DNA of 64,000 nt from Sphagnum compactum (Eukaryota), in assembly GCA_965153455.1 (NCBI GenBank), contig OZ234494.1:2914001-2978000 (forward strand), read 5' to 3'. Of this stretch, positions 1-48,694 are shown in pieces; the stretch's first letter is position 1; every line of letters begins with the position of its first letter. Under the pieces are notes generated by a model, which was not told the origin of the DNA, ran no database searches, and saw nothing but the letters and a program-made list of their open reading frames with translations. Position numbers and translations under genes: made by a program.

Positions 1-134
1 GAGTCAGTTACATCTGGGGAAGTTACATCTGGGGAAGCTCCACAGGGAACAGGCAGTGACTGGAATCTTCGTAATGTTAAAACGTCGTAATGTCTTGTGA
101 CACACAAACACCACTGTAGCTTTTATATATAGGA
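1..134 (-). mobile_element. 5' terminus of a Helitron extending left out of the window (same family as 3740-14216)
   Basis: Minus strand reads A|TCCTATATATAAAAGCTACA. 71-134 closely matches the 5' end at 14141-14216 (cgtaatgttaaaacg...aatgtcttgtgacacaca...tgtagcttttatatatagga). Confidence 0.8.
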
Positions 135-689
135 TTAGGTCACAATGATTATAACCATTAATAAAATTTAAACGCATGTAATTATTTTTGCCATTGTTTT
201 ACGGGTTGCAAGGTTGTTGGCTTCCCAAGAATTCAACTTATTATAATTTGGCTTGTTACACTATGGCATATGCTACAACCAAGTTTGTTGTTGAATCAAT
301 TTAAAAGGAGATTTAGGTTGTCACTAAACTTCCCTCCCATCTCTTTAAAGGGCATCAAGTTCATCTCATTCCTATTGTTGTCATTGCCCATCAACATTCT
401 TGGGGAGTTGGGCATTAGATGTTTCATCTTTGGTGTCTTGTTTTTTGTTCAACAACATCCTTTCTTGTTGGAGTCTTTGGTTCATGTTGACTTAGGCATT
501 GTCCCATTCCAACAACATTTGAAAATAACATATGATCTTTTCTCCTTATGGCTTGCACTTGTTTGTTTTTATTTGAATAATTTATTTTGAAACAAATCAA
601 ACACCTTAAAAACTCCATTTTAGTATGTTTATTCTAGCACACCTAATTTGAATATTCTTTTGAAAGGGAAGTCCAATGTGCATGAAATT

Positions 690-3020: not shown

Positions 3021-4930
3021 AAAATGCAAAATAATTGGAGTGATTGTAAATCATTAATGAACTACTAAAATTTCACAAACAATGCAATTATGAACTCCGA
3101 GATGAACTATATGAAGACTGCTGAAGAATCTTCAACGAAGGATTTTGGAATTAAGCAAAGAGAAATAAATGTTGTCCATCACATAATTCAAGGATGTAAA
3201 AGCTAAACATATTTAACAGAAAGAAAGGGTACCAAAATGACTAATTACAAAGTTAATCTTGTTAAAGAACATAAGTTATAATTACAAATGGATGTGGAAA
3301 AATGCAAGGTGATTGTTCTAGAGCATCTCATACAAATTGTGAACAACAAACAATTGAAAATTGAAAAGAAGTTATTTTGTTTAATCAATTGGGAAAAAAA
3401 AAATTAACACCCACAAATAACAAAACTTCAACAAATTGAAAATGCAAACCTTCCATATGCTTTCCCTTTGTAATATTGTTAGATTATTTCATGTGCATAA
3501 AAGACACAGCTATGCAAAACATTACAACAAGTACAACATGGTATGATCAAAAGCCCAACCTCCATAATACCAGTTATATGTGATTTCATGTGTGGTTTGC
3601 AATATATATTATAACCATTAATGACTATTTTAGAAATAATAAAAACAATATCCTTCTGAAAAAGGAATAATAATCTAGCACACATATAAAGGACATAGGA
3701 CACATACGGATTGACCTTCCTCTTTTCTAATTAGAAAGACTAGTGGGTAACCCGTGGCTACGCCACTCCAGCCACCCCTAGGGTTTGGGGCTTTTTAAGT
3801 TTTTTTAAAATAAGATTTAATATTAAGTTCTGATTTTCTTTTTTTCTTTTAATCTTTATTTAGGGTTTAAGATTTGGGGCTTTTAGGGTATATTTTTAAA
3901 CTAAGGTCTCATTTTCTTTTTATCTTTTAATTCTGAATTAATATATATGTTGATTGGTTTGTTCATTATTCCAGCAATTCTTCCATCAGTTTCATAGCAA
4001 GTGTATTTGTTCTGATCCTACTGAATGATTTGACCATTTTTTTGAGCATGATTTTAACACATTTGATTCTCTAGGACTCATCAATGAAATTTGCTGGTGT
4101 TTGTTCATTGCTCATTTGCCCAGTTACATTGTCATGAAGGTCAAGACAATTGTCTAATACTTTGTGAGTGGACCCACATAAGGTTATGACCACACCTCAC
4201 AGACAGACAGATAGACTAAGTATAGGTACTACCACCATTGATTCCACTACCAATTGGGACATCAATAGTTTCTCCTCGGTTAAGCTTTGTAATCGAATCT
4301 ATCATGAGCTTACTCTCTGCAACCCAGTCAATACGATCTACTCTAACCACTGTCAATTTCAACCGCTGCTCATCATTGTACATCTCTTCTTTCACTTTCA
4401 GCTTAAAGAGGTGCTCCGTGAATGTCAGCTTCTGTATTGCTTCAATGAATTTTTGGTTATCAGTTTGGCTCCATAAGAAAAGTTCTTTTGCTGGGTGTTG
4501 CATAATCTCCTTGCCAACCTCCTGGAAGGCTGTAACCCATGTTGGACCCGTATGATCTTGCACTTGGATGTTAAGCAAATACCTGCAGCCAATTGATCAA
4601 GTTCTGAATAGGAACCCAAAGAGGCACTGCAAGATTTGACAAACTCTCAATGACATCCTCCACTGTCATATTATGGGAAGAACATGCAATTCCACATACC
4701 CTGCCCCTACAGTGGTGTTCTACTAATTATGGTTAAACAAAGGCTCCCCTCCATACAATAGACCACCAGGGTTATAACCAAGACAATGTCTCTTGAATAA
4801 TTAGGAACTGAAAGACTGACCTGTAATCACATTCCGGTACAGTGCGATCACATCTATCACACCGCCATGTACCGCCATTGTTGGTCACTTTCTTGTTGCA
4901 TTGCTTACCACCATTGTCAAGTGGGCAGGC

Positions 4931-5160
4931 TGTCATGGCCTAGGATATTTTTGGATACTTTTGGCAATGTCATGTCCTAGGATATTTTTGGATACTTTTG
5001 GCAATATCATGGCTTAGGATATTTTGGGATTAGTATGGCTCAGGGTTATAAAAGGAGATAGTCTGGGGAACAACCCTTCAGCAAATCAACACCAGTTGAT
5101 GGGTCAATAAAGCTTGTCTTGTCTTGTAATTCTCCACTTGTTTGTAGTCGGTCCATAACA
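4931..5160 (+). repeat. 5' LTR (230 bp)
   Basis: tgtcatggcc...ccataaca. Two full ~37-bp internal units plus a partial one. TATAAAA at 5047-5053 and a downstream AATAAA. Confidence 0.97.
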
Positions 5161-5162
5161 GT

Positions 5163-5172
5163 TTGATATGCT
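5163..5172 (+). promoter_or_regulatory. Putative self-priming primer-binding site
   Basis: TTGATATGCT directly after the 5' LTR is complementary (9/10) to AGCAAATCAA (5080-5089) and AGCAGATCAA (10866-10875), 33 nt after the LTR TATA box. No tRNA-type TGG start. Confidence 0.7.
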
Positions 5173-5336
5173 CCTTCTTCTTGTTTGTTTGTTTTGTTGT
5201 TTCAGTAAGTAGCTAGAAGTATCTTGGAGTGAAACTTGGAAAGGTTATAGAAGACTATAGGACGCTTCTACTCTCAAAGTTTCAAAAGAAAAGGATATGT
5301 TTTGTGAGAGTTAAGAGCTTTTGAAAACTCTGTGCC

Positions 5337-5954
5337 AGATCTGGGTTTTTGGTCATATCTCCTTTGTTTAAGCTTTTTTGGGTCTGTAACTTTGTGATCT
5401 TATAGATCAAATAGGAATATATGTGTGAGAGAAATTTCATGTCATTCGGACTTGTATTGAGAGAGATCCAAGCATCTGAAGTTTCAAGTGCAGATCTGGT
5501 TTTTTTGTCATATCTCCTTTGTTTAAGTTTTTTTGGGTTTGTAACTTTGTGATCTTATAGATCATATAAGAATATATGTGTGAGAGAAATTTCATGTCAT
5601 TCAGACTTGTATTGAGAGAGATCCAAGCATCTGAAGTTTCAAATGCAGATCTGGTTTTTTGGTCATATCTCCTTTGTTTAAGTTTTTTTGGGTCTGTAAC
5701 TTTGTGATCTTATAGATCATATAAGAATATATGTGTGAGAGAAATTTCATGTCATTCGGACTTGTATTGAGAGAGATCCAAGCATCTGAAGTTTCAAGTG
5801 CAGATCTGATTTTTTGGTCATATCTCCTTTGTTTAAGCTTTTTTGGGTTTGTAACTTTGTGATCTTATAGATCATATAGGAATATATGTGTGAGAGAAAT
5901 TTCATGTCATTTGGACTTGTATTGAGAGAGATCCAAGCATCTGAAATTTCAAGT
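5337..5954. repeat. Tandem array of 4 x 155-bp units in the retrotransposon leader
   Basis: agatctg(g/a) starts at 5337, 5492, 5647 and 5802; units nearly identical. Confidence 0.95.
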
Positions 5955-5992
5955 TTGAAGATTGAAAGCGCAAAAGTGTGAGAACTACCACC

Positions 5993-6967
5993 ATGGACAA
6001 TTCAGAATCAAACATCGATCTCACTCAAATCCTCGCCGCCCTTCAGCACCTTCAACAAGAAAATGCCGTGCTTAGAGACTCGGTGACCCGCCTACAGAAT
6101 CAGCCACCACCTCCTGCCCCAGTACTTCTTGTTCTTGCAATGGCCGCCCAAGAGCCCAAGATCAGTCTGCCAGAAAAGTTTGATGGAACGCGCCTCAAAT
6201 TTCGAGGCTTTGTCAGCCAAGTACGCCTGATCATGCAACTACACCCCCGTCGTTATTTTGATGACACCATTCGTGTAGGATTCGTAAGAACCCTATTCAC
6301 TGGGACAGCTGCAGCATGGTTTGCTCCCATCCTGGAAACATCATCCCCTCTCCTACAAGATTTCAACGCCTTTATGGCGGAATTTGAAGCAGTATTTGGG
6401 GACAGTGACAAGGCCAAGACTTCAGCCAACAAGCTGCGCCGCCTCCAACAAGGGACACGTTCGGCCATCGTCTACGCCTCAGAATTCAGGCAACTTGCCT
6501 GCGACGTCAATTGGGGAGAAGCTGCCTTGATTGATCAGTTTCGCTGTGGGCTTCGTGATGATGTTCAAGATCTTTTGTTGACACTCGCCGACCCTTCTTC
6601 CTTCAGTGAAGCCATCACCTAGGCAATTCGGTGCGATAATCGTCTGTTCGAACGTCGCTAGGAAAAGAAAGTCACCTCCAACGCCCAGCTTTGGAACAGT
6701 CAGCCTACTACGCTCCCCTTAGTTCCCCAAACAACACCAGTTGCCCGACCTGCCTCTTTTGGACCTGCTCCGATGTAGATCGACACAGCTAAGTTTAAAT
6801 CTTTGACAGAAGCTAAGAAACTTCGCCGAAGGACAAACAATCTATGTCTTTACTGTGGCAACCCAGGGCATATAGCTCGTCAGTGCCCTCAAAAGCTTGT
6901 CAAACTTCAAGTACAAGCTGTGAAAACTCCCCAGGAGTTGGAAAACAAGAACATCCAGTCACAGTAG
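5993..6967 (+). pseudogene. gag: gag (capsid + CCHC zinc knuckle) with three premature TAG stops
   Basis: EPKISLPEKFDGTR, RLQQGTRSAIVYASEF, CLYCGNPGHIARQC. Stops at 6620, 6659 and 6776; natural stop at 6965-6967. Confidence 0.92.
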
Positions 6968-9900
6968 GTGCCGTGCGACTGGATCTCACCCAACACCACC
7001 TTTGCAAAGGCTCTTGTTCCGCTGTTGGTCCCAGTCCTAGTTTCACTCAGTATGTGGACATCATTCGTATTCTAGAAGACATACCACAAGTGTCAGTTTT
7101 GGTGGACTCCGACGTCACCTCTTCTTTCATCGACCAAACATTTGTCGTCCAACACAACATCCCTGTGGTCAAGAAGTCAACCCCTGTTCCGGTAGAGGTT
7201 ATTGATGGGGGAACCATTGCTTCTGGTGCAATCACACACGAGACAACCCCTCTACAACTCTGTATCGGCAAGCACACGAAGAAGATTGTTCTCAACATCA
7301 TTTCCACCCCTCCCCATCCCATCATCCTTGGTCTGCCTTGGCTAGAAGCACACAACCCTATCATTGATTGGCGATCTAGAACCCTCACCGTCAGCGCACA
7401 ACGGTGCACCTTTCAAGAACCCCACGCTCAGAAAAACACTTTGTCCAGTCCTGCCAAGAACCCTGTGGTCGGAACCAATTCCAGTTTTATCAAGTCTGTT
7501 ATGTCAAATCCTGCAATCAAGAACCCCCGGTTGGTCAGAACTAAACCTTGTCTTGTCAAGAATCTTGTCAAGAATCCTGCCCAGAAAACCAACCCTGTCC
7601 AGATCTTCGTTGATAGAGCTGTCCCTTTCTATCAGGCTGCTAAGAATCTTCAAGCCTTCGCCATCCATGTCAACCCAGCCAACACCACAAACCCCCAATT
7701 AGAACCAACACCTGTCAAACTTCCCGAGAAGTACAAGGACTTTGTTGATGTTTTTGAAAAGATTAATGTTGATCAGCTCCCCGCCCATAGTCCATATGAC
7801 TGCCCGATTGATCTAGAAGAAGGACACTCACCACCCTTTGATCCTATCTATGGCCTATCGGAACCGAAACTCCAAGCCCTGCGTGATTACCTTACTGAAA
7901 ATCTTGCCAAGGGGTTCATTCAGCATTCCAAGTCTCCAGCCGGCGCCCCAATTTTGTTTGTCAAGAAGAAGGATGGCTCCCTTCGACTCTGTGTGGATTA
8001 TCGTGGACTCAACAAGATAACCAAAAAGAATCGATATCCCTTGCCCTTGATTTCAGGTCTCCTAGATCGACTACGTACCGGGAAGATCTTCACCAAGCTT
8101 GACCTCCGTGGAGCCTACAACTTACTTAGGATTCACCCCGGTGATGAATGGAAGACAGCTTTCCGCACACGCTACGGCCACTTCGAATACACGGTCATGC
8201 CCTTCGGCCTCACCAATGCACCCGCAGTCTTTCAGCATCTGATGAATGATATCTTCCGGGATTACATGGACGAATTTGTCGTGGTCTATTTGGATGACAT
8301 TTTAATCTTTTCCAAGGACCAGGAAACCCACGACAAACATGTACGATTGGTGCTTGCGACGCTCCGGGAGCATGGCTTATACACCAAGTTGGAAAAATGT
8401 GAATTCGACAAATCTTCAGTGGCGTTCCTCGGCTACGTGATCTCTCCAGATGGCATTTTCATGGACAAGTCAAAGGTCGAGACCATCCAGTGTTGGGCTA
8501 TTCCATCCTCGGTCAAGGACGTTCAACGCTTCCTAGGGTTTGCCAACTTCTATCGTCGGTTTATCAAAGGCTACTCCAAGATCACAACACCGTTAATAAC
8601 CCTGACTTGCAAAGACAAGCCCTTCTCGTGGAATCCAACGGCCCAGGCTGCTTTTGATACTCTTAAGATGGCATTCACCTCTGCACCCATCCTGATACAT
8701 CCCGATCCTGCCAAGCCATTCATTGTGGAAACGGACGCTTCAGATTTTGCCTTGGGAGCTATTCTATCTCAATTTCGAATAGATGGGTTGTTGCATCCAG
8801 TTGCTTTCTATTCACGGAAGTTAACCAGTGCCAAAATCAACTACCAGGTCTACGATAAGGAACTCCTGGCAATCATCATGGCATTCGAGCAGTGGAGACC
8901 GTATCTTGTCGGAGCTCAACATCGAGTCCAAGTTTTGACAGAGCACAAGAATCTCCTTTATTTCACAACTACTCGAACCTTAAATCGTCGTTAGGCACGC
9001 TGGTCTATCTTCCTAGCTGATTTTGACTTTGAGATTCAGCATCAACCCGGCACCCAGCAAGGGAAAGCTGACGCGCTATCTCGTCGTTCAGAATATGAAC
9101 TTCGAGCGGGGGATGAGGCCTACGGCCAGCAGAACCAGACTTTACTCAACCCCGAGCAATTTCGAGTTGCAGCAACAATCAGCATCCTCCCAGACTCATA
9201 CCTTGTCAGGGACATCAAGATGGCAACTGAGGAAGACACCTGGGCTACCAACATCAAGAAGGAACTCCAGGAACGACCAAGGAACCCAAATCGTGATGAC
9301 TTGGATTAGTTTGAGCAGCAAGACGGACTTCTCCTTCGAAATAACCTGATTTATGTACCCGAAGGACCTATACGCCTAAAAATCCTGAGAGAATGCCACG
9401 ACAACACCCTGGCGGGTCACTTTGGAATGGCACGGACTCACGAACTAGTGTCAAGGACTTACTGGTGGCCCAAAATGAACAAGATGCTACGGGAGTATGT
9501 CAAGTCTTGTGATACATGTGTTCGATCCAAGGCTCCTAGGCATCGCCCGTTTGGACTCCTACAGCCTCTGTCGATTCCTAGCCGACCTTGGGGATCTATT
9601 GCAATGGACTTCATCACGGACCTCCCTACTATCAGAACCAAGAATTCAATACTGGTTGTGGTCGATCGACTCACCAAAATGGCCCATTTCACCCCTTGTT
9701 CCAAGTCAATCACGGCAGAAGAGACAGCTCAGTTAATTCTGGAGGGGATCGTCCGACTGCATGGACTCCCCGAGGAAATTGTGTCCGACAGAGGTCCTCA
9801 GTTTGCATCCAAGTTCTGGCATCGTCTATTCGAGCTTCTTGGAGTTGACATTCGGCTATCTTTAGCTTTCCACCCTGAGACAGATGGACAAACCGAACGG

Positions 9901-10680
9901 ATAAACCAGACACTCGAGCAATACCTTCGCTGCACTGTGAACTACCAACAGGACGATTGGCTAGACCTACTATCTCAAGCAGAGTTTGCTTATAATAACA
10001 CAACACATGCATCGACCGGGATCAGTCCATTCTTTGCCAATTACGGTTTTCATCCCAGGTTCAGCCTTGAAATTCCTGGAGACTCCGTAAACCCCTCGGC
10101 TGAAGAAAGGGCCACGAGGCTTGGACAGGTTCAATAGAACCTTATGGCAAAACTCAAGCTAACACAGGAGTGGCAAAAGAAGCAAGCAGACCGCCGACGC
10201 AAGGACCATCCAAACTTCAAGGTTGGAGACAAGGTCTGGCTTCTCAGAAAAAACATTGCTACCACTCGCCCATGTGCCAAGTTGGATTACAAGCGCCTCG
10301 GACCTTTCAAAATCGCCAAATTGGTTGGTCTAGTGGTTTGCCAGTTGGAGCTTCCACCCCAATTCAAGATCCACAATGTTTTCCATGTCTCCCTGCTTGA
10401 GCCCTATCATAAAAACCCGATCCCAGAACGTCATCAAGAACCCCCAGCTCCAGTCGAAATTGAAGGCCAAGAAGAGTTTGAAGTTTAAGAGGTCTTGGAC
10501 TCCAAGAAGATTCGTGGAAAGCTCCTGTACCTTGTCCTTTGGCGAGGTTATCCTCCTTCTGAAGCTACTTGGGAGCCTGCTGGAAACCTAGTTCATGCCC
10601 AAGACTTAGTTAATCGGTTTCACCAACGATATCCTAACAAACCGGCTCCATCTAGAAGATGTCGCTTGAGGAGAGCATAA
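6940..10680 (+). pseudogene. pol: pol (protease, RT, RNase H, integrase, chromodomain) in the -1 frame relative to gag; four premature stops
   Basis: VLVDSD (degenerate PR), LRLCVDYRGLN, YLDD, TDASDFALG, HDNTLAGH..CDTC, IVSDRGPQF, GPF, YLVLWRGYPPSEATWEP. In-frame stops at 8992, 9307, 10135 and 10486. Confidence 0.95.
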
Positions 10681-10946
10681 TGTCATGGCCTAGGATTTTT
10701 GGGATACTTTTGGCAATGTCATGTCTTAGGATATTTTGGGATACTTTTGGCAATATCATGGCCTAGGATATTTTGGGATACTTTTAGCAATATCATGGCC
10801 TAGGATATTTTGGGATTAGTATGGCTCAGGGTTATAAAAGGAGATAATCTAGGGAACAACCCTTCAGCAGATCAACACCAGTTGATGGGTCAATAAAGCT
10901 TGTCTTGTCTTGTAATTCTCCACTTGTTTGTAGTCGGTCCATAACA
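10681..10946 (+). repeat. 3' LTR (266 bp), preceded by PPT gaggagag (10668-10675)
   Basis: Matches the 5' LTR with one extra ~37-bp internal unit. Confidence 0.97.
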
Positions 10947-12571
10947 TAGGCAGTGTAGCAGAAATTGTGGGGCTTGATATATAAGACCCTAGCTCTTACA
11001 GTTATCCAGTCAGGCTTATCACCTCTGCCTAGTCCTTCATCTTTGATTGCAGAGACAATTTTGCGGAGCTTAGTTCGCATGCCAGTACCACCTTCCCTGG
11101 AAATTGACTGGGAAACTGAATGCCGTCCCTCCCCATCAAACCAATCCCGAAGCTGATGTGCTACCGGTATATCAGGATCTATAAGGAGCTGTGTTGAAGA
11201 TATTGTTCCAACTGATTTGCCACTGAAATCATTGACCCTACCTGCCTTCACAGCCAGTACAGGGTTCAGGCCAGAGTCACAGAGATCTTGTATCTGCTGC
11301 CCCTCTTTATGACAAAAACTGCCCCACATTGTGATTTCCACACTGTGGCCAGATCTATCCTTTATCTGCAAAGTTCTCTTGTGTGTCTCAATGCCATTCT
11401 TGCGCATAATGGTACTTGAGAAATTGATTGACACAACAATTCCAATGACATCCACCATTGCATTATTTTCCATATTTTCAACATCACCAATAGGCCTGAA
11501 GTGAAACTGCTGCTAAGGGATTGATCCATCTCCCTCAAAGCAAGGCTCCACTGTTGATGATGACTCCATAAATATTTCCCAATCATTTTTTAAATGATCA
11601 AAATTCTTGTTTGTTGCCTTTAGAGAACCCTTTGTAATGAAATACACCATGCCCACATCAATTTTATCATAGAACTGATCCACAACATTGTTGAAGTAAG
11701 TAGCTCGAATCTCTCCATTATCTGCATCCAAAAGGTCAAAGGAGAAAACCTTGCCATCTCCCCTGGCGTTGTGGAAACGGCGGACATCACTCTTGGCAGT
11801 CACTCTTGCTTTGATAGTCCACCGACCCTGGTATGGATTCAAGGCGGCAATTGGGACAATTCTGGCAGGTGCTTCATTCTTGGCAATGGGTCCTCTATTT
11901 GAATAAACAGGGGCAGGTTGGTAGGGAGGAGCAACACTGGGTCTTCCATATGTATTTTGTTGCTGAACTTGCTGATTATTAACCCCACCTACTCCACCCA
12001 TAGCTGGCCTCTGGAAGTCACCAGAGTCAGTCTGAGGCACAGCACTCCCTCCTCCATGTCCATCAGAGTAACTTCCATTATTGGATTGACCTATACCTCC
12101 TTTAATATTCATGTCCTGTATGTTTTTTGTGATAAACCAAGATAGGACATCTGATTGATACCCTTTGTTTCTTGTATGTTTTTGTGATCAAATTATGTTT
12201 TCATTGATCTTGATAAACCAAGATAGCTTGAAAAAAAGAAAGTCATAAGTTAAAATTTCCTTCCCTTCTCCCTCCCTTCATAGAGAACATACCAGGAAAT
12301 CTTGATGTCGCAGCTTCATACAATTTCAACAGCTTCATGTTATCATACAATTGTTGCAAGAAATGCATTATTTTGTCAGGGAGAGAAGCTTGAGACAGCA
12401 AGTGTCTAGGTTGAGCATTCAGGTCAATCATGCCTGATACAGGCTGGTTGTTCTCGAGCAAACCCACTCAAATGGACTAAACATTGAAACCTGCCATCCT
12501 TTGGTGATACATCCCACTACTGTCATTGCATGCATAAGGTTTACTTTGGCATGCTGAGTTTCCTGCATGAC

Positions 12572-12733
12572 ACTTCCAATGCAAAGCTGCTAGAGAAAGC
12601 TGCACTAAAAAGAAATGATGACAGATCACAGACATGTGTTTATTGCTTAGGAACTTCCAATGCAAAGCTGCTAGAGAAAGCTGCACTAAAAAGAAATGAT
12701 GACAGATCACAGACATGTGTTTATTGCTTAGGA
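12572..12733. repeat. 2 x 81-bp tandem duplication inside Helitron cargo
   Basis: acttccaatgcaaagctgctagagaaagc...ttattgcttagga starts at 12572 and 12653. Confidence 0.95.
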
Positions 12734-15700
12734 AAGGTCGGTTCTACCAGTCAATTCCTGGAAGCAGAAAGTACAGCATCATGAATGCTCTTGGACATGT
12801 AGACAATGACACACTATGTAGTGGAGCAACGATGCCAATGCACATCCATTTTCAAGTGTTTCTCAGGTCCTTTGCAATTTGCAAAATACCTGTCTCCAAT
12901 GCCATATTGGTTCTTTCTGTTGCATCATTGACAATATAGACTTTTGGTGCTAAGTTTTCAAAATACCTGATAATATCCATTTTGCAACCTAATTCCAGCA
13001 CTTGGTGATTTGTAGACCTTAGAAGCACACAATCAAACAAATGAGACAAACAAACCCTAACTCAAGTCTTTACCCACTGATAAGTGGAGTATGGAGGGTA
13101 CTTGTGTCCACTTCATCAGCAAACTTGGTGAAAATAGATACAAACTATCAGTCCCAAGAATCTAACATATGAGATTTTTTGCTATCCTTCCTACAGGTCC
13201 ATACTGCAAGGAAAGCTGCTAAGTACCTGCATATTCCAACACTCACCTGGCATAGGTGAAGCAGGAAGGAGGGCCTTGCACGTAATGAGTCACATTCAGA
13301 AATCCCTATACCCTGTGCAAGAAAAAAAGAATCAAAGCAATAATGGCTCTGACTGACCTGCAAACCTGCACAGGATCAAATGGTATCAATGTGTTACATT
13401 CTACTCTCACACCTAAATGACTGACACAGGGAAGATGGACACTGATAGTGGCAAATTAAGTAACAGAGGATCATCCACATTGCAATCTTAGGTGCTCTCC
13501 ACTCCACCTGCAGCAGATGTTATTGGGCCTGCAATCTTGACATACATAGAGAGGAAGAGAGCAAGGGACTAACGCTAACAAATATAGCCGCATTCAATAG
13601 AGATTTACCCATTTTCTGCCCCTGTTCACCTGTACACAAACAATTTGTTGGCTTTTACAGCTCCAATTCCAAAACATTTCAAGCTGCTGGCCTATGAATT
13701 TTTTTATGAATTTTTTTGATGAGGATTGTTGAATTTTGTTATGAATTCATTGTAGCTCTTACTTCGATTCTTACATTCTGGAGGTCAGCAAATCTCTTGA
13801 ATGTGCCATTGGCATCTAAAGTTATGAATTGAAAGACAGAGAGACACAGACACAGACACACAGAGAAAAATACAAAAGGGATTTGAATGTGGTCTCATTG
13901 AACATTGCTCTGCTCTGATCTAAATGCATCTTCTTCAGAGAGAAATACAAAAGGGATTTGAATGTGGTCTCATTGAACATTGTTCTGCTCTGATGTGAAG
14001 CATCTGTCTGTCTCTTGGAGCTTTTTCAGATATCAGAGACATCAAGGCAATTTCTTCAGAGATCAGAGACATCATGGCAATTTCTAAGAATTTGCTTTTC
14101 AAAGATGTTTCCCAACTGCCCTAACTGCCGCCGGTTCCGGCGTAATGTTAAAACGCATAATGTCTTGTGACACACAGACGGACACATAGACACCATTGTA
14201 GCTTTTATATATAGGATGGACAATGAAAAAGATAAATACATTGTCATAGCCATGAACAGTGTACTCACATGTGCTTCATGTCTTTGTTGTGTTTGCGATT
14301 CTTGATGCATTTCATTGACATTTGAGCAAAGGCATAAAAAAATTCAATATGTATTTTTTATTGCTAATGATAATCCTCCTCCTCCTCCAATTCTAAAGGT
14401 TTCAACTAATAAAGGCATTTAGGTCAACTTCATCATTTTGTTAAATATATCCACATATGTATATATAAAATGTCAATGTTTCAACTTTTATTTTACTTTT
14501 TCCATAATTCTTGCCACTTCAACTTCTTGCCAATTTACCATGTTTTATATCTAAAAGAAAATTTGGTTTTGTTGGCATCACCAACACCAATATAATGGTT
14601 ACGATTGAACGAAAACATTTGTTTTCGTTTTTCTCCTTCCATTGCCAAGGTATCAACAACCATATGCCCCCAACCTTGTCATTGTTTCATTCCATGACAA
14701 CAAATGGGACAGTGGATCTGTGCATGTATCATCATCATCATGTTACATTGAATGGGTTTCTCATTTTCATGTTTGTGGAGTGGACTAAAGGTTGACTTTA
14801 ATCAATGGGAATGGTATTTAACAATATTCATGGTTTTGTTTAAGTGGATTTGAATATCCATGTTTTTTTAACTTTCAATTTTGTCTATCATGTTGTAGAA
14901 TCCACAATTTACAAATGTTGAAAATTTCCCCCAAAAATTCAAAACAATTTTTTTTTGTGAAGGAAACTATTGAATTATCAAGAATATTTTATTTGTCAAA
15001 AAAATTAATTATTTGACAAACATTTGTTGAAGTTACAAAGGTAAAAAGGTATTAGTATACACACAAACAACAGAAGCAAACTCCTAAAATAGCCCCACAC
15101 AAGATAATTGATCTAAAGTTTATCTGAATATCAAATGGGAAAATGGGAAAATCAATCCTAAGCAAAACCTTCACACCAACAATATGATGTCCAATGAAAG
15201 TGGGTAGATGTGACATATAATGTTGAAACCTTCATAAGGAGGAAAGCCACCATAAATTACAAAACATTTTTTGTTACTGATTTAATCACAAAATCTACCT
15301 AAAAAAAACCTGAAAAAACACACTTTTGAAGGGGAGGGTAAATCCCAACAAATAATGCAAAACCTCAAACATTATTATAATGGAGTCACAAAAACACCTA
15401 ATAACCACATAAATCATCAAAAAATTGTGTTGATTGAATTTAGGATATAACCAACAATAGCACAAAACATAACACACTACATTAAGATCAAATGTTGACA
15501 ATTTTTTTTTAAAATTTGAAAAAATAATTAGCCAAGACATTTTCACAATTATTGTAAAGTTATCATCATGCAAATTGGGAATTAATTTTGAACCATGTCA
15601 AATTTATTGTGTATTAGTACATCATGATCCTCCTAGATGAAATTCTCATGGAATTTTTATTCCCCAAAAGTAATAATCATGTCACCTAGCTTTGGTAAAT

Positions 15701-16446: not shown

Positions 16447-19400
16447 ACATTCAAATCCTCATGTAACATAGTAAAACACAAAATCTCTCATTTGTTTTGA
16501 AGGGGATTAATGTGATTGTTGTTTCAACCCAAAAATTGAAATAACTAACAAGTATATTAGTTACATCCACTTCATCCTTTTTAATGTAGATTAATAAGGC
16601 TTGCAAGAAACATAACAAATTAAAAAAATGTAAAGTTTTCCAAGTAATGCACATGTTTTTATTTTATTTTATTTTGGAAAAATGTTTTATTTTCATTTAT
16701 GTTGACATTTTTTCCAAGTGTTCTCCACATACATTTCACCAAAAATCAATGTGATACTTGTTCTAAACTTTCAATTTAGAATTGTTGACATTCCTTTTAA
16801 CAAAATATATTCCAAAACATGTAAATATAAACATAGCTTCTCAACATATGATGTTGTGCAATGTGTTTTTTTTGAACATATGAAAATTGTAATAATTTTT
16901 TAGAAATAGGAATTCCAATGTCAAAAAACTTGAAGTTGGTATAATGAAGATGTTTTGTATGGTCTTTTATCGTAACAATTCTAAATAGAATGTTGAGGAC
17001 CATATGACGGATTCTGCAAAGGTGTCTCTTTGGATCTATGTCTTTTCAACACCATAGCCATGAATTACCAAAATCATGAACAAATTTTCAATACCTTTTG
17101 TACCAATTTGCATTTCATTTCTTTTCAATTGATTATGAATCCCATTGAATTTGAATTTAGTTCAATATATTTTAATCCAATAGGAATTTTAATTCAAATA
17201 ACCATATTGATATGTTAATTCCAAACTACTCCAGATTATAACATGTTAAATCAATTATATTTTGATTATTTGTTTCTAACTGAATATTAAGCATGAGAAG
17301 AATTTTTTTATTAAAAAACTAATGTAGGTTTGATCCAACCCTATTACATAATACACAACATTTACATCACTTTAGATGGACATCACACTGCCACCCACAT
17401 ATCATTAAGTTTTATACATGATCATCATATGAAGACATACAACAACAAAATGAAAAGGCGAACATTGTTGTTAACACATGAATAATGAACTATGGAATGG
17501 AAAATTTATTACTTCTATTTAAATTTCATTGAAATTTAACTCTTTTTGTAAGAACTTTTATGTCCAAAAAAAAACTTCCATAATTTGCTGAAAATGAAAG
17601 TTAAAAAAATATATCAATGAATATTTTCAATCGTCGAATATTTTGCTACATTTCCCTCCAACTTCCACCAAAACTTCAATCTTCACTCCCTGGTGCACCA
17701 TAACCATAACATATTCTACCTATTGGTTAATCTCCCAGAACATGTTACAACATAATCAAGTCAGATTCTCTTCCCCCCCGCCCCTGCCCCCCCAAATCAT
17801 GCACCCATCAATGTAACTTATCAACATACACTTCAAAAATTTTAATACAAACTAACATATGACCCAAACAACAACATAAATTGCAAGAAATCAAGGAGGT
17901 CAATACAACACAACCATAACAATGAAGTGTAAATTAAAATGAAAAGAACAAAAAAAACCATATTCTATTGTGCGTTTCAAATATACAATATTGTACACAA
18001 GGTGCCATTGACCCTACAACAAATCCAAGTCCTTTAGAATTGTGTTAATTAAACTACAATCGTGTAGGAATGTGCAACCTGAATAAGATTGTCCATCACA
18101 AAATTCTCATTTTTGTATCATTGTTTGAATTTTTTTTAAATGTTGATGTTCATTCAACATAAAGGTTCTCCCCTATTCCCACATTCACGTAGACCAACTT
18201 GACTATAAAATTGTCTATAAAAAATTTCCATGTTTGGATCTTTCTTTGAATCCTTTCTGAATGTTGATATTGTTCAATGGAAGGGATTTCCACTATTCCA
18301 CGCCCATGTTCCATGTCTTCAAGAACAACGCTTTCAAATCCATCCAACTCTACAAAATGGGAAGGAACAAAACTAATCAAAGAAAAATGTTGGACATCTA
18401 GATGAGTGAAACCATCCATAAGCTTTTGGACAATTGTAAATCAATATAAAATGATAAGTATAAACCATCTATGAAATCTATTTCAAATGAAAGAAGTTTT
18501 TTGCTTTCTAAATACAACTCCAAGGAAAGGCCATTTTGAAATCTTTGAACTGGTCAATGACTCCACTAATCCATCGACTCCGTACCAAATCTCCAACTAG
18601 TTTGGAAAATTAGTCCAAAAGTCATGAAGGAGTTGATGGCATCTATAGAGTGAGCCACAACAAGTTCAAGAGCCTCATTTTTTGTAAACCGTGCAATTGA
18701 GTTCCTCAGATTAATGCAATTGTGAGAAAGCTTTGGTACTCTTGCGGTGCCATGCCCATGATATTTGAACCTACTTGAATGGCAAATTCAAGTAGTTAGA
18801 ACATCCTAAAAACAACATCTTGAAAATTCATTAAAAACAACATAAACATTTATATCGTTCACTTCTATCCTTGAAAATATTTGTACAAAAACTAGGAAGT
18901 AGTAATGTTGTTGTGCCTTATAGATTATTAAATACTCACCACCACGAGCGCAAACAAGTCATCTTCAAAAAATTGCTTTCCATCACCGTCCTCTTCTCCT
19001 CTCATATTTATGTTCCATTTCAAGATTATGTTGCACAAATTATTAAGTTGTTCCCACTCCAATGGTGTCTAAGCACTTTGAACTCCTTGAGGTTTACTTT
19101 CACCTCACAATCATTCCATTCAATATATGTCACAATTTAATAGTTATTTTAAATTTGAAAAAAAAGTCAACAACCTTATTCCAACATATTGTGGAATTGG
19201 TTTGCACATTTAAAAAAAAAGTAAACAATAAAAGAAGCAACATTTTTTGAGGATTTAAGGATTGTCACCATAAGTTTGTATAACATATTATTGTTAAACA
19301 TAGTATAGTTGCAAATTTAATTGATCCATTGAAATACGAAAGGTATCAACTTGAATGGGATTCGAATGCAAAAGAGTTTTTAGAAAAAATAAAATTAGTT

Positions 19401-21095
19401 GATGACAAAGGTGCATTGCATCAAAGAAGAAAAAGAAAAAGAAAAAGAAATTGTGTTTAACAATGGTTCTAGAATTTGTGTAAAACCATTGCATTGAAGT
19501 CCTTTTTGATTTCATAAATGTCATCATTCTAATCTAACAAAATGTTAAAAGGCTTTTTTTAAAAGCATTCAAATCCTCACGACACCTTAATTCCCAAAAT
19601 CTCTCACTTTTGGAAGGGGATTGTTGTGACTGTTGTTTTGACCCAAAAATAGAAGTAATTAATAAGTATATTAGTTACATCCACTTCATCTTTTTTAATG
19701 CATATTAGTAAGGCTTGCAAGAAACATAACAAATTGAAAAAAAATGTAGAGTGTCCAAGTCATGCACATGTTTTTATTTTATTTTATTTTTTCCATTTTA
19801 TTATTTTGTAAAACCATTTTATTATTTATTTATGTTGACATTTTTTTCAAGTTGTCTCCACATACATTTCACCAAAAATCAATGTGATACTTGTTTTAAA
19901 CTTTGAATTGAAATGGCCACGTGAAATTTCTCCAAAATTGTTGGCATTCCTCTTAACAAACTATATTCCAAAACATGTAAATATAAGCATAGCTTCTCAA
20001 CATATGATGTTGTGTGATGTGTTTTTTTTGGGCAAGTGGAAATTGTAATAATTTTTTAATAATAGAAATTCCAATGACAAAAAACTTGAAATTAGCATAA
20101 TGAAAGTGTTTTGTATGGTCTTTTATTGTAACGATTCTAAATAGGATGTTAAGGATCATATGAAGGATTCTACAAAGGTGTCTCTTTGGATCTATGTCTT
20201 TTCAACACCATAGTCATGAATAATCAAAATCAAGAACAAATTTTCAGTACCTTTTGCACCAATTTGCATCTCATTTCTATTCAATTGATTATTAATCCCA
20301 TTGAATTTGAATTAAGTTCAACATATTTGAACCCATCTTAGGAATTTTAATTCAATTCAATTTAATAATTTCAATGAAGTTCAAGTTGCATGGAATGTCA
20401 TTCAACATTTTAATTCAAATGTAATTTAATTTTCAGAAAATAAACTCATTTTTTCATCATTATGACATCATTAGTAGTACATAGGAATGTAGAGTCCATC
20501 GTTTGATAATTTTTTTGTTAGACGTGACAAAAATGTTTTATTTTTTACAAAAATAGGGCCATTGGTGGACTATACAGGAACTTACTAATGTTGAAAAACC
20601 ATATTGATATGTTAATTCCAAACTACTCAAAATAATTACATTTTAATTTTTTTATATTTCGATTATTTGTTTGATAATTGAATATTAGGCATGAGAAGAA
20701 AATTTTTATTAAAAAACTGATGTAAGCTTGATCCAAGCCTAGACCGTCTTGGATGCATGTTGTTGCCATTAAAAAGTCAAACTAATTAACAATTGCAGAT
20801 TTCTCGATTACATAATACACAACATTTACATCACTTTAGATGGACATCACATTGCCACCCACATATCATCAAGTTATTATCCATGATCATCATATGAAGG
20901 CATACAACAACAACAAAATGAAAAGGCGAACATTGTTATTAACAACAACCAAATGAACACATGAATAGTGAAATATAGAGTGGAAATTTTATTATGTATA
21001 TTTAATTGCATTGAAATTTAACTCTTTTTATTAAGTTTTTATGTCAAAAACTTTCTTTCGTCCATAATTTGCTAAAAATGAAGTTTTAAAAAAAA
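16447..21095. repeat. Diverged direct duplication: ~16447-17620 vs ~19566-21095 (second copy longer by insertions)
   Basis: Collinear blocks including aagtatattagttacatccacttcatc, aaggtgtctctttggatctatgtcttttcaacaccatag and catttacatcactttagatggacatcaca. Confidence 0.9.
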
Positions 21096-21284
21096 TTTCC
21101 ATGATTGAAATGCAAGTGTCAAATGAAGTTCTTGCGACTCAAACTCAAGTGTTTTTAACACAGAAGGAATTCCTATTACCACTCCAATTCAAGTGTTTTC
21201 AACACACAACACAAAAAGTTACGTGATTCAAACTCAATTGTTTTCAACTACAACCCGTTTCTTTCTGCATAATGGGTAGGGATA

Positions 21285-22130
21285 AAAAAAACCCATTGCA
21301 AAATTTATTACAACCCACTTCTGGATATGGGCAGGAAAGAAAACTCATTGCAAGACTTACTAACAACCCATTTCTGCATTTGGGCAGGGAAAAAAAATTC
21401 CATTGCAAAATTTACTACAACCCATTTCTACATTTGGGCAGGGAAAAAAATCCCATTGCAAAATTTACTACAACCCATTTCTGGATACAGGAAGGGCTTT
21501 TTGCCCATGGCAAAATTTACTACAAACCCATTTGTGCATACGGGCAGGTCCAAAAAAAACCTATTGCAAAATTTACTACAACCCATTTGTGCATAAGGGC
21601 AGGTCTAATAAAAACCTATTGCAGAATTTACTACAAACCCATTTGTGCATACGGGCAGGTCCAAAAAAACCTATATCAAAATTTACTACAACCCATTTGT
21701 GCATACGGGCAGGTCTAATAAAAACCTATTGCAAAATTTACTACAAACCCATTTGTGCATACGGGCAGGTCCAAAAAAACCTATTGCAAAATTTACTACA
21801 ACCCATTTGTGCATACGGGCAGATCTAATAAAAACCTATTGCAAAATTTACTACAAACCCATTTGTGCGCACGGGCAATTCTAAAAAAAACCAATTGCAA
21901 ATTTTCCCACAACCCATTTGTGAAAACGGGCAGGTCTAAGAAAAAACCCATTCCAAAATATGCTAAAATGCATTTATGCATACGGGCAAGGCTAAAAAAA
22001 ACCAATTGCAAATTTTCCCACAACCCATTTGTGAAAACGGGCAGGTCTACAAATAATAAACCCATTCCAAAATATGCTAAAATGGATTTATGTATACGGG
22101 CAAGGCTAAAAAAAAGCCATTGCAAAACTT
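21285..22130. repeat. Minisatellite, about 15 units of ~55 bp, with alternating-unit (dimer) sub-structure
   Basis: Unit cc(t)attgcaaaatttactaca(a)acccatttgtgcatacgggcaggtc; units alternate between ..ggtccaaaaaaa and ..ggtctaataaaaa. Confidence 0.95.
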
Positions 22131-29687: not shown

Positions 29688-30827
29688 TTAACAGTAACAT
29701 CTACTTTTAAGCTCAAAGAAGGTAGGCTCAAAGAAAGCTGCATCAACCTCTACTGCGTCCACGTCTGGACATGACCTAATATAATCCGATCTCCTGATGG
29801 AAGGGAGTATTTCCCACTTCCTCTCCAAGAGATGGAATGCAGCAATTGTCTGCCTGTGATTCTGCCATATGAAAATTTGCTGGCTGTTGGCAGTGCACTG
29901 GATGTTTCCAGGCTTTGGCAATTCCTGATGCACTCCAGGCTCGATGTTTAGCACATCAGCACACATCCTCTCTGGCATCTTCATCACCCATGAGAAGCTC
30001 TGTGTGTTGCAGTCAAACATCCATATCTCAACCAACCCCACCTTTGTTTCAGTTATTGCAAAAATCTTACCTCCACATTCAACAACTTGACATTCAACTT
30101 CTGTTGCATTTGAAGTTGGATATGGAGACTCAATGACATCGTCACTCCATTCCTCTGTTGCAACATTGAATGCAACCAAAACATTGAATCCTTCTTGGCT
30201 TTGGCCCACACAGTAGAGAAACCCATTAGAGTAGGCAGCTCCATTCTTTGCTTTGAGTTTGCAAATCGTTAGATTTGTTATGCTCACTGGCATAGATGCT
30301 GCTACTGTGGTCCAAGAATTTGATGCAAAATTATAGACCTCTGTCGCTTGTCCTCTGATGGCAACAATCTTGAGGTTTTTTGTCTCCTCCTCCACCACCA
30401 TCTGCAGTTCTGATGCCCCCCAATAATCTGAAGATTGGGGAAGTGGCTTTGATTCTCCAATCACAGGATTAAACATGGTGTAACTTGAATAGTGGTTACC
30501 AGACTTCAGACACAAAATGCCTTTCCAACTTCCCCGTGTTCGAAGAGGATCAACTTTCTTCACAATATCTCCTAAAGCTGGCATCCGCTTCCACTTGCTG
30601 CTTGTGCTATCATACCCTAACCAGACGTGGTTACCAAAATCATTCTTCATGAAAGCAAGAGGGCAGTAAGTGTGAGAGTTTGCAAAGCCAGCTCGAAAAG
30701 GCTTGTTATCTACTAGGCATTTCCAGCGTCTGCAGACAGCTTTTGCTCGGATTAGGTCAATCAGAGGCACTTTCCAAAAAACCAGCTTAAGCAGATCATC
30801 TATGAGACGATTAATGGGGGATTCCAT
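29688..30827 (-). CDS. F-box protein with C-terminal kelch-like/F-box-associated region, single coding exon (379 aa)
   Basis: N-terminal LIDDLLKLVFWKVPLIDLIRAKAVCRRWK F-box; TEVYNFASNSW, NGFLYC and VVECGGKIF propeller-type motifs. Confidence 0.9.
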   Translation of the reverse strand: MESPINRLIDDLLKLVFWKVPLIDLIRAKAVCRRWKCLVDNKPFRAGFANSHTYCPLAFMKNDFGNHVWLGYDSTSSKWKRMPALGDIVKKVDPLRTRGSWKGILCLKSGNHYSSYTMFNPVIGESKPLPQSSDYWGASELQMVVEEETKNLKIVAIRGQATEVYNFASNSWTTVAASMPVSITNLTICKLKAKNGAAYSNGFLYCVGQSQEGFNVLVAFNVATEEWSDDVIESPYPTSNATEVECQVVECGGKIFAITETKVGLVEIWMFDCNTQSFSWVMKMPERMCADVLNIEPGVHQELPKPGNIQCTANSQQIFIWQNHRQTIAAFHLLERKWEILPSIRRSDYIRSCPDVDAVEVDAAFFEPTFFELKSRCYC

Positions 30828-31496
30828 CTTTGCTGCTCACAATGCCACTCCAATGAACAAATGTAACAGGCATCTTAGTTGCAGCAGCAGGATACCTGTA
30901 CAAGGATCAAAGGAGACACAACAAAAGCAGATGAGTCCCTAAAGGAGATAAATGATTACCATGGCTTTGTCTATTTTGTTCTCCTGCAACTGATGCAAAA
31001 ACTTTCAGCTTTCATGAAATCTGTTATGCACCAATACACTTCCCTTATGAAGAACTGCAAAGGAAAAAAAAAGGAAAGAAAACATAGAAAACACATTAGT
31101 TCATTACGATGGGGTAGTATTACCAGTACAAGCAGTTGCTTTTTTTTTCTTGCTGCAGTCTGCAAGGCAAGAACCAGAAAAATAGAAAGTGATTGCCAAA
31201 AAAAACATCTACAGTAATAAACACGCACCTCTCTCCTGCTGTAGTTTATCTTCATAATCCGTTTACACGTGAACAGCAACATTGGCTTCACAATCGCCTG
31301 AAAACCCTTCACAGCAGCCCGACGAACAAAATTGTGCCTCAACGATTTGGAAACAGTTTGTTTTGCTGTTTTCTCTGTAATTTTAACAATCGTGCCTCGC
31401 TAGCTTCCGCAGAAAACCGCAAAACAAACGGCAATACTCGACTTCAGAGAAAAGTTCTGGAAAACGTCGTCGACGAGCACAACAAGGATCGATGAA

Positions 31497-46367: not shown

Positions 46368-48694
46368 ATGGCAATGGCATGCCAAGCATTAGCAGCCACG
46401 GCAGTTACAACAGGGAACGTCGTCCCTCTTGCTGCTTCATCTTCCTCCCACTTTCCTCGTTTGCAGCTGGTTACACCGATACTCTCACATGGTAACAACT
46501 CAAGAACTGCATCCATCTCACCACCATTCTGTCTTGTGCCTATATTACCGAGACCTAACCTTCCACCATAATGTGATTTGAACACTAAATTTGAGTTCTT
46601 TAGAACTGCCATCTGTATTTTGTGTCTTTTCAATCTGTTCTTGATCATTTCCCCTGATTGTGCATTACAGAATTGGGAAGGTGTAGACTTGCAACAAGAT
46701 CTTCAGCTACTAGTTACTTTGGCACTGCTCCCCAGAATCGTGGTACCACAAATGTAACAACCAATGCTGTTGCAGTGAGTAGAGCCTAACTTGAACGTGA
46801 AGATATGGTGTGTTCTGTAGTCTTGCCATTCAATGATCAAGGATTGTTCAAAGAAAGTGCAATGCCTCCTGAATTGATGCTATGAGTTTTTTTTTATGAC
46901 CCCCTAGTGAAGCAATGCATGTTATAAAACCATGAGGGCAGCTGCTTCTCTTAATGATGGCTGAATAGTCAGTCTGGGGCTCTTTCAAGTTTCAGGGACT
47001 GTTACTTATTCAGAGAGAGTGTAAAATTTGTTGGCCTGGGTTGAGCTGGGCATGATGTGATCCTCTTCCCATGGGTTCAGACGTTTGAGTGATGTGGATG
47101 CAGACAAAGGAAGCATCCACAAGCTCTGCAACCACAACTGGAGGGTAAGCTGTGACTATAATCCTGCAAAAATGCTTTGGGCTTCTCACTCTTGCAACTT
47201 TGTGTTATTAATGTACACATGTCCTTTCAAGACAGAGTGGTGGTCCTCACTATCCAATGGTTACTTCATTGATATCATAGTCAGCTGCTGCCAACTTTCT
47301 TTCTCTTTCTTGCATCTGTACCACTTTGTCCAGAGGAGTTAAGGTCATAGGATTTCAGTGAAATGTCTGGTCCTTGGAAGCTTCCCATCTGCATGGCTCT
47401 TGAGGGTCTGGTTTGTTTCATTGCATTCCTGTCTTGACTAAAAAAGCTGTGCTACAACTGATGACTACATTATTGTGGGCCCGATTTGTGGTATTTTAGC
47501 CATGAACTGCTGCTATTTGAGGCTCTTCGTGAGGGACTGGAAGAGGAATTGGACCGGGACCCAACTGTATGTGTCATTGGTGAGGATGTTGGTCACTATG
47601 GTGGCTCTTACAAGGTCACCAAGGGTTTTGCGGAAAAGTTTGGAGACTGGAGACTTCTGGATACACCTATTTGTGAGAACTCCTTCACTGGCATGGCCAT
47701 TGGAGCTGCTATGACAGGTCTACGGCCAGTTATCGAAGGTATGAACATGGGCTTTTTGCTTCTGGCCTACAACCAGATTGCCAACAACTGTGGCATGCTT
47801 CATTACACATCAGGGGGCCAATTCACAATCCCTGTGGTTATCAGGGGACCTGGAGGGGTGGGCAGGCAACTGGGTGCTGAACACTCTCAACGCCTGGAGT
47901 CTTACTTCCAATCTGTACCAGGCCTACAAATGGTGGCCTGTTCAACCCCATACAATGCCAAGGGGCTGATGAAGGCTGCCATACGCAGTGAAAACCCCGT
48001 AATTTTGTTTGAACATGTGCTGTTGTACAATTTGAAGGAGAAAATCCCTGATGAGGAATACACGTGCTGCCTGGAGGAGGCTGAACTGGTTCGACCTGGG
48101 GAGGATATTACTATCCTGACCTATTCTCGGATGCGTTACCACGTTACCCAGGTGTGTTGTTGGTTCTCTGGCTGTGCAGCTCATTGCATTTACAACCCAA
48201 TGAACTCTGGTAGTGTGACAAGATTCAGGATTCAAGAGTGACACACTACAGTAGAAGTTGAAAGTTCCATAATATATATGTGAGAATTTATGACTAAAGC
48301 TCGCACATATGCTTGTCTTTATCTGAGAGTGTAATGCTTCAGATGCTGGGGTTTTTTGAGCTTGCAGGCTGCTAAGACCCTGGTGAATAAGGGGTATGAC
48401 CCAGAGATCATTGACATTCGTTCATTGAAGCCATTTGACATGTACACCATAGGCCAGTCAGTGAAGAAGACACACCGAGTTCTGATTGTGGAGGAATGCA
48501 TGAGGACAGGAGGCATTGGGGCTAGTCTAAGGGCTGCGATCATGGAGAACTTTTTTGATGACTTGGATGCCCCCATTGGTTGCCTCTCATCACAGGATGT
48601 TCCAACCCCCTATTCTGGCCCTCTGGAGGAGCTGACTGTAGTTCAACCTCCCCAGATTGTAGCAGCTGTGGAACAGCTTTGCTCAAGAGAGTGA
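46368..48694 (+). CDS. PDH-E1beta: Pyruvate dehydrogenase E1 beta subunit, plastidial
   Basis: Exons 46368-46491, 46671-46774, 47104-47144, 47500-48151, 48368-48694. Motifs [52 protein letters not shown]. Ser/Thr/Ala-rich transit peptide. Confidence 0.96.

What the first reader, a model, noticed from the sequence alone, without database searches (positions are those of the whole stretch)
3740..14216. Helitron that has captured a host-like RPA70 gene with its intron
Seen: both Helitron termini bracket an RPA1 fragment with all three core ssDNA-binding OB folds and the Zn ribbon, an intact GT-AG intron (DNA-level capture), no DBD-F and no RepHel. Established: some autonomous angiosperm Helitrons encode diverged RPA70-like proteins thought to assist rolling-circle transposition. 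Inference: this may be an independent, recent RPA acquisition, since the protein still looks host-like and its visible lesions are one TAG and the LTR insertion.
Basis: partly seen in the sequence, partly recalled or inferred. Interest (0 to 1): 0.78.

Follow-up and report, generated by a model that had tools for sequence, protein, structure and literature searches.

The report
Moss Helitron carrying young host RPA70
A rolling-circle transposon (Helitron) family in peat moss carries the DNA-binding core of the moss's own replication protein A gene, whose intact donor is still in the genome; this copy is dead, but signs that parent elements kept the reading frame open suggest an early stage of a recruitment otherwise known only as ancient, untraceable events.

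Summary
Observation confirmed. Window 14216→3740 (minus strand) is one Helitron: A|TC start, hairpin, CTAG|T end, 4,456 bp without a nested 6-kb Ty3 chromovirus. Ten other RPA-bearing copies have both ends at unrelated A|T sites. It carries linker, DBD-A/B/C and a 238-nt intron from an intact, syntenically conserved Sphagnum RPA1C-type gene on contig C6, plus four other host fragments. It is not an angiosperm Helitron RPA: mobile copies form one clade (99) sister to the host orthologues. Copies decay neutrally (ω≈1), this one is dead, and RNA reads were host-type only (17/17). Yet 7 of 7 shared rearrangements keep the frame, against 3 of 18 single-locus ones, no stop is fixed in any family, and fixed changes are 13 synonymous to 13 replacement. 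Against function: gene capture is common here, and fixed replacements hit conserved columns. Odds of functional cargo in source lineages are about even. The scan's notes held no earlier Helitron-RPA case.

The parts
3740..14216 (-). Whole non-autonomous Helitron (4,456 bp without the nested LTR element), between A and T
   Evidence: ten other RPA-bearing copies with both ends at A|T sites
13664..14216 (-). 5' terminus (TC start) and 553-bp leader shared with a RepHel-bearing family member without RPA (L067, 96%)
13101..13665 (-). Fragment 73-74% similar to DNA just downstream of two U2AF35-like genes (C4:7.79M, C11:3.55M; gene name from my reading of the translation)
12462..13058 (-). Fragment matching C15:4.909M (86-95%), with an internal 81-bp tandem duplication
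12225..12460 (-). Fragment matching C1:8.523M (96%); part of it lies in an expressed host transcript
12108..12227 (-). Fragment matching C8:5.649M (98%); supplies the in-frame ATG (12112-12110) that opens the RPA frame
10952..12100 (-). Captured RPA1 exon, first part: shortened linker (48-nt in-frame deletion), DBD-A, DBD-B, start of DBD-C
11513..11515 (-). Private premature TAG between DBD-A and DBD-B
4931..10946 (+). Nested, decayed Ty3/gypsy chromovirus-type LTR retrotransposon (gag, protease, RT, RNase H, integrase, chromodomain); LTRs 4931-5160 and 10681-10946; target duplication 4926-4930 / 10947-10951
   Evidence: 5 differences in the last 165 LTR bases
4821..4930 (-). Rest of the exon: DBD-C zinc ribbon, with the family-wide 3-nt deletion
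4583..4820 (-). GT-AG intron inherited from the donor (238 nt)
   Evidence: the same intron is spliced in host RNA
4216..4582 (-). Last captured exon part (DBD-C) to 4222, then a new stop from element sequence; the donor's Gly-rich CCHC tail is not carried
3740..4215 (-). 3' tail, with a piece matching another host transcript, ending in the hairpin (3754-3766) and CTAG

Best explanation
SHOWN: this is a dead, non-autonomous member of a Sphagnum Helitron family. A Helitron once captured, as DNA, most of the host RPA1C-type gene (at least from the end of intron 1 to just past DBD-C). The piece then moved among Helitrons with at least two different sets of ends and was trimmed by deletions. One arrangement put it upstream of RepHel in a single element (C18, 10.4 kb); the window family looks like a RepHel-less derivative moved in trans. 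After insertion each copy decays neutrally. INFERRED: in the source elements the RPA frame was under moderate selection to stay open, so the cargo acted for a time as a helper protein. The product (about 545 aa: DBD-A/B/C without DBD-F or the CCHC tail) would bind single-stranded DNA and, through DBD-C, could join host RPA2/RPA3 to coat the displaced strand or circle during rolling-circle transposition, without the N-terminal domain that recruits checkpoint partners (domain roles from established knowledge, recalled).
For: Donor found and syntenic in related Sphagnum contigs. Mobile copies monophyletic, UFBoot 99, and nested with the donor, 100/100. RPA and RepHel in one element at C18, and RPA plus a 345-aa helicase end at C6. 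Coding rearrangements found in two or more copies: 7 of 7 in frame; single-locus ones: 3 of 18 in frame, leaving out two CAG-slippage events (Fisher p=2.5e-4). With microhomology-matched baselines the six of 9 nt or more multiply to about 0.003 (my product values). No stop is fixed in any group, while 18 of 243 singleton changes are stops. Group-fixed changes absent from hosts and paralogues: 13 synonymous, 13 replacement (p=0.010 against 27% synonymous). Window family: intron 6/238, synonymous 10/351, replacement 10/1263. A control, an RPA1B fragment captured by a CACTA-ended repeat, has a frameshift fixed in 4 of 4 copies. The retained domain set is that of maize Helitron RPAs (PMC3288121).
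Against: No expression seen: in a polyA library (12% of the run read) 17 of 17 reads at the diagnostic codons were host-type, and three other runs gave host-type contigs. Lineage-specific changes alone, 8 synonymous and 9 replacement, are not significant (p=0.06); the other 9 may date from the host phase. The dead RPA1B control also shows a synonymous excess against its donor, 5:6 unpolarised. Fixed replacements are not biased to variable columns: 3 of 8 at columns at least 90% conserved (Fisher p=0.73, rank test p=0.07). Large rearrangements alone, 6/0 against 3/3, give p=0.18; the frame test was post hoc, and three events lie in one lineage, two of them adjacent. The element also carries four non-RPA fragments. 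Truncated copies multiplied too (family 2: DBD-A only, 7 copies). Of the 16 window-family and 7 family-2 copies only 2 carry RepHel parts, against at least 150 RepHel matches in the genome. Only 1 of 12 copies reaching DBD-C has a frame free of stops and shifts (L034).
Confidence: 0.5

Rival explanations
1. Passive gene capture. RPA1 is one of many host fragments picked up by Sphagnum Helitrons and never functioned; the synonymous excess comes from the host phase before capture, and the in-frame rearrangements are chance plus codon-periodic microhomology.
For: Mosaic of at least five host pieces. Singleton changes neutral (ω≈0.97). Host-only RNA. An RPA1B fragment was also captured, by a different transposon type. 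Conserved columns are hit by fixed replacements. Earlier scan notes describe many gene-capturing Helitrons in this genome (unchecked).
Against: 7 of 7 shared rearrangements in frame against microhomology baselines of 0.32-0.51 each; no fixed stop; intron and synonymous divergence about three times replacement divergence in the window family; the same cargo kept under several element architectures and in more than one species.
Confidence: 0.4
2. The frame was kept open for a reason other than RPA activity, for example because source elements whose transcripts carry premature stops are degraded or silenced faster, or because a Helitron-borne duplicate served the host for a time and seeded the families.
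For: Explains frame conservation together with replacements at conserved columns. A spliced 447-aa product with a mobile-type tail (P0129) is in the protein collection.
Against: No direct support. P0129 has host-type residues where its group is fixed for others, so it may be an assembly chimera. Copies sit at unrelated sites, with no conserved extra locus seen.
Confidence: 0.1

Closest known systems
Plant Helitron RPA (PHRPA), including the rice Mothra mother element with RPA but no RepHel (Roffler et al. 2015, PMC4683698; passages seen)
   Same: RPA70-like cargo inside Helitron ends; a RepHel-less element whose relatives carry RepHel.
   Different: PHRPAs are reported only in monocots and dicots, average 21% identity, branch outside core RPAs and have no known donor. 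Here the cargo is 93-96% identical in DNA to an intact host gene in the same moss genome and nests among core RPA1 proteins.
Maize ZmhelA1/B1/B2 and stepwise gene-fragment capture (Dong et al. 2011, PMC3288121; passages seen)
   Same: DBD-A/B/C retained; RPA upstream of Rep in one architecture; several host fragments and repeated 5' termini in one element.
   Different: The ZmhelA1 RPA is described as a remnant of very low similarity, and ZmhelB1/B2 carry RPA after the helicase in the same ORF; here it is a separate, young, host-like frame.
Group-C plant RPA1 (RPA1C/E; Aklilu and Culligan 2016, PMC4731521; passages seen)
   Same: The donor has few introns (3) and a Gly-rich C-terminal extension with two CCHC knuckles.
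   Different: The captured copy lacks both DBD-F and the CCHC extension.
HELIANO survey of domains carried by Helitron-like elements (PMC11417382; passages and one supplement search seen)
   Same: RPA recurs in HLE1 and HLE2 and is thought to be independently captured; S. magellanicum was scanned.
   Different: It reports RPA enriched downstream of RepHel in HLE1, whereas C18 has it upstream. I saw no statement on a Sphagnum RPA or a traceable donor in the passages read (2 of 6 supplement hits for Sphagnum viewed).

Membership tests
Canonical Helitron (HLE1) | 5' TC start | tested here: met
   window and 9 of 10 other two-ended copies; L036 starts GA
Canonical Helitron (HLE1) | 3' CTRR preceded by a GC-rich hairpin | tested here: met
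   CTAG (CTAA in L038) with hairpin
Canonical Helitron (HLE1) | Insertion between A and T, copies at unrelated sites | tested here: met
   11 of 11 two-ended copies whose flanks were printed, window included
Canonical Helitron (HLE1) | Empty site without target duplication | not testable with these tools
   right flank unique in the genome; no relative genome held
Canonical Helitron (HLE1) | RepHel in a family member with the same ends | tested here: met
   C18 element (PF14214, PF05970, PF21530; frame broken) and L067
Autonomous Helitron | RepHel in this copy | tested here: not met
   no tblastn hit in the window
PHRPA (angiosperm Helitron RPA) | Branches outside core eukaryotic RPAs and is highly diverged | tested here: not met
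   nests with the Sphagnum host gene, 100/100; no PHRPA sequence was in my tree, their position is taken from PMC4683698
PHRPA (angiosperm Helitron RPA) | DBD-A/B/C carried inside Helitron ends | tested here: met
Functional Helitron accessory gene | Purifying selection after capture | tested here: inconclusive
   frame test for; lineage-specific synonymous excess p=0.06; column-conservation test against
Functional Helitron accessory gene | Expressed | tested here: not met
   17 of 17 diagnostic reads host-type in one raw library, low depth
Group-C RPA1 (donor gene) | C-terminal Gly-rich extension with CCHC knuckles; few introns | tested here: met
   donor L037, 912 aa, 3 introns; PF00098 in orthologue P0132

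The most novel reading that the evidence does not exclude
Sphagnum Helitrons have independently recruited the host RPA70 core as a working accessory protein, recently enough that donor, intermediates and trimmed variants (one with an in-frame DBD-A duplication) all survive. This would be a replay, with a known donor, of the ssDNA-binding-protein acquisitions known elsewhere only as ancient events, converging on the same DBD-A/B/C set.
Probability: 0.45. Interest if true: 0.78.

Novelty: new variant of a known kind. Interest (0 to 1): 0.58.

Why it matters
Whether Helitron RPAs come from the host gene, and whether they help transposition, is open: Roffler et al. argue for horizontal transfer from an unknown donor, and no functional test turned up in the passages I read. 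Here a host-derived RPA core sits in Helitrons beside its intact donor, across species and element types, with a RepHel partner. Host origin is shown for this case, and selection and function become testable with the many Sphagnum assemblies. If the cargo is passive, it is an ordinary but well-resolved gene capture that also explains spurious RPA1 gene models in S. fallax.

Tried and rejected
Normal or syntenic RPA1 locus: rejected (donor on C6 with conserved flanks). Chance pairing of separate termini: rejected. Retrocopy: rejected (intron kept). PHRPA membership: rejected. Empty site: no paralogous site in the window or genome. The Cys-to-Tyr at the first zinc ligand scored for the window copy arises because my LTR-free sequence kept the mutated copy of the target duplication; it is not a separate lesion, and it adds one to the window's private count. 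Polarising against one paralogue mislabelled some host changes and was replaced by host orthologues. Counts of variants shared by 4 or more copies include recurrent C>T/G>A hits, so I rely on group-fixed counts. Rows dropped: L109 and L111 as the same locus as L108; L047 (old diverged copy) and rows under 430 aligned bases (L091) from the DNA tree; one junction-linked synonymous and one junction-linked replacement change remain in the 13:13. Branch-level dN/dS was not obtained, so pre- and post-capture changes are separated only by sharing patterns. Searches for prior reports listed no paper on a moss Helitron RPA; subscription journals, Repbase and bioRxiv supplements were not seen.

Full report
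Setting. The window is G000:C2:2914001-2978000 of a 382-Mb genome. The closest named homologues of its RPA proteins are from Sphagnum fallax, S. tenellum, S. troendelagicum and S. jensenii, so the organism is a peat moss. RepHel Helitrons are abundant: 150 scored PF14214 matches from 398 candidates.

The element. On the minus strand it runs from A|TC at 14216 to a hairpin and CTAG|T at 3740. A decayed Ty3 chromovirus-type element occupies 4931-10946 with a 5-bp target duplication; its LTRs differ at 5 of the last 165 bases. Without it the Helitron is 4,456 bp. Of 11 other loci whose ends I printed, 9 have both ends between A and T at unrelated sites; the tenth (C18) ends further on, and L042 lacks the 3' end. 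Full-length copies are 97-98% identical to the window. The family has at least 16 RPA-bearing copies, 12 of which reach DBD-C; counts are lower bounds. The first 553 bp are shared with a RepHel element lacking RPA. The next 1.56 kb match four unlinked loci at 73-98%, the last of which supplies an in-frame ATG.

The donor. L037 (C6:5.205-5.209 Mb) is an intact 912-aa RPA1 with DBD-F, three introns and a Gly-rich tail with two CCHC knuckles, which is the group-C pattern of PMC4731521 (passages). It matches the element only over the RPA segment, at 93% and 96%. An intact paralogue lies on C2 (81-87%). Two metagenome contigs match the donor and several kb of both flanks, so that is the native locus. 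The window copy holds donor residues 164-720 with the 238-nt intron.

History. A second family in this genome (7 copies, 1.8 kb, different TC and hairpin-CTAG ends) carries DBD-A of the same gene. Of the 23 metagenome loci, 16 are non-syntenic copies with several other junctions and tails; S. fallax gene model P0161 has the window family's exact start junction. In the DNA tree all mobile copies are one clade (UFBoot 99), sister to four host orthologues plus the donor (91), well inside the paralogue split. The protein tree groups mobile and host proteins at 100/100 within moss RPA1. This supports one capture, younger than the paralogue duplication (pS 0.31) and at least as old as the sampled orthologues' split (pS 0.05). 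Some lineages keep the end of intron 1 with exon 2, or the intron 3 acceptor, so the first capture was longer and DBD-F was lost later. C18:47264-57693 holds 5' end, RPA, a second 5' segment, a frame-broken RepHel and the 3' end in one unit. L036 joins RPA to the last 345 aa of the helicase. Three short copies end in a fusion of that second 5' segment to the 3' end, as expected of internal deletions of a C18-like element (inference). One metagenome locus has a RepHel piece 1.5 kb upstream of RPA on the same strand; whether it is one element is unknown.

Was the cargo functional? Inserted copies decay neutrally: singleton changes are 65 synonymous, 160 replacement and 18 stops (ω≈0.97 after allowing for the C>T/G>A spectrum). 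Only L034 keeps an uninterrupted 534-aa frame. Shared features look different. Seven coding rearrangements occur in two or more copies (deletions of 48, 3, 237, 84 and 9 nt, a 420-nt DBD-A duplication, an exon 2 junction) and all keep the frame; of 18 single-locus events, 15 shift it (p=2.5e-4). Microhomology-matched baselines are 0.32-0.51 per event. No group has a fixed stop. Group-fixed substitutions absent from hosts and paralogues are 13:13 (p=0.010), split 5:4 shared by nearly all mobile copies and 8:9 lineage-specific (p=0.06). A control, an RPA1B fragment in four copies of a large CACTA-ended repeat, has a fixed frameshift, but also a 5:6 ratio against its donor, which weakens the substitution argument. 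Fixed replacements are not confined to variable columns among 113 homologues (3 of 8 at 90% or more conserved). Large events alone do not separate shared from private (p=0.18). RNA gave no support: in one raw polyA run (12% read, 289 reads laid on L034) all 17 reads at the diagnostic codons, 8 across the 48-nt deletion and 6 across the 3-nt deletion were host-type; contigs of three other runs agreed where they covered these places. Silencing would give the same result, and the runs may be other individuals.

Mechanism. Shown: DNA-level capture, in-trans spread without RepHel, neutral decay. Inferred (about even odds): source elements made a DBD-A/B/C protein able to bind the displaced strand and, through DBD-C, host RPA2/RPA3, lacking the DBD-F and CCHC modules linked to damage signalling (recalled; CCHC role as discussed in PMC4731521). 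The rival is passive capture, which earlier unchecked scan notes describe repeatedly in this genome.

Comparison. PMC4683698 (abstract and passages) places angiosperm Helitron RPAs outside core RPAs, finds them only in monocots and dicots, has no donor, and counts at least three independent acquisitions of ssDNA-binding proteins. PMC3288121 (passages) describes DBD-A/B/C in maize Helitrons and stepwise capture. PMC11417382 (passages, one supplement search) lists RPA among recurrent domains and scanned S. magellanicum. Eight searches (listings only for other papers) showed no report of a moss Helitron RPA with a known donor. The element works like a Mothra-type RPA-bearing derivative but is not a PHRPA.

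Verdict. Real, correctly delimited, independently derived from the host gene; function unproven. New variant of a known kind; interest 0.58.

Noticed in passing
G000 C6:16.35M, C1:0.87M, C16:6.42M, C1:3.06M (L083-L086); donor C5:14.566M (L087): A repeat of over 27 kb ending in a CACTA-type terminus, four copies at 98%, carries a 1.45-kb fragment (DBD-A, with introns) of the host RPA1B-type gene, with a fixed frameshift. The other end was not reached.
   Followed up: partly
L047 (C11:4.015M): An older, heavily decayed RPA1 A/C-type copy (about 74% DNA identity to the donor) with many stops; context not examined.
   Followed up: no
L094 (C88:17.6-19.5k): A divergent RPA70-like sequence (26-36% identity) on a 30-kb contig; could be a contaminant or another element.
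   Followed up: no
window 1-135 (minus): 5' end of another Helitron related to the same family, running off the start of the window.
   Followed up: no
window 5298-5950: About four 155-bp tandem repeats in the 5' untranslated part of the nested LTR element; the LTRs themselves differ by one 35-bp unit.
   Followed up: no
window 21280-22130: Minisatellite of about 55-bp units, roughly 15 copies.
   Followed up: no
window 16495-17411 and 19609-20875: Degenerate duplicated blocks 3.1-3.5 kb apart (81-97%); 2672-2997 also matches 19183-19508.
   Followed up: no
window 29691-30836 (-), 47465-48238 (+), 51919-54255 (+), 59450-60397 (-): Host genes by my reading of the translations, not searched: an F-box protein, a pyruvate dehydrogenase E1 beta-like exon, a 779-aa low-complexity frame, a possible mechanosensitive-channel N-terminus.
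   Followed up: no
P0003, P0005, P0130, P0143, P0161 (S. fallax models): Several annotated S. fallax RPA1-like proteins share the mobile copies' diagnostic residues or junctions and are probably transposon-borne fragments, not host genes.
   Followed up: partly
P0129; P0154: P0129 is a spliced, open 447-aa product with a mobile-type tail (possible expressed copy or assembly chimera); P0154 is an open 612-aa frame with DBD-A duplicated.
   Followed up: partly
L041 (C3:19.63M): Rearranged family copy with an inverted duplication of the RPA segment.
   Followed up: no
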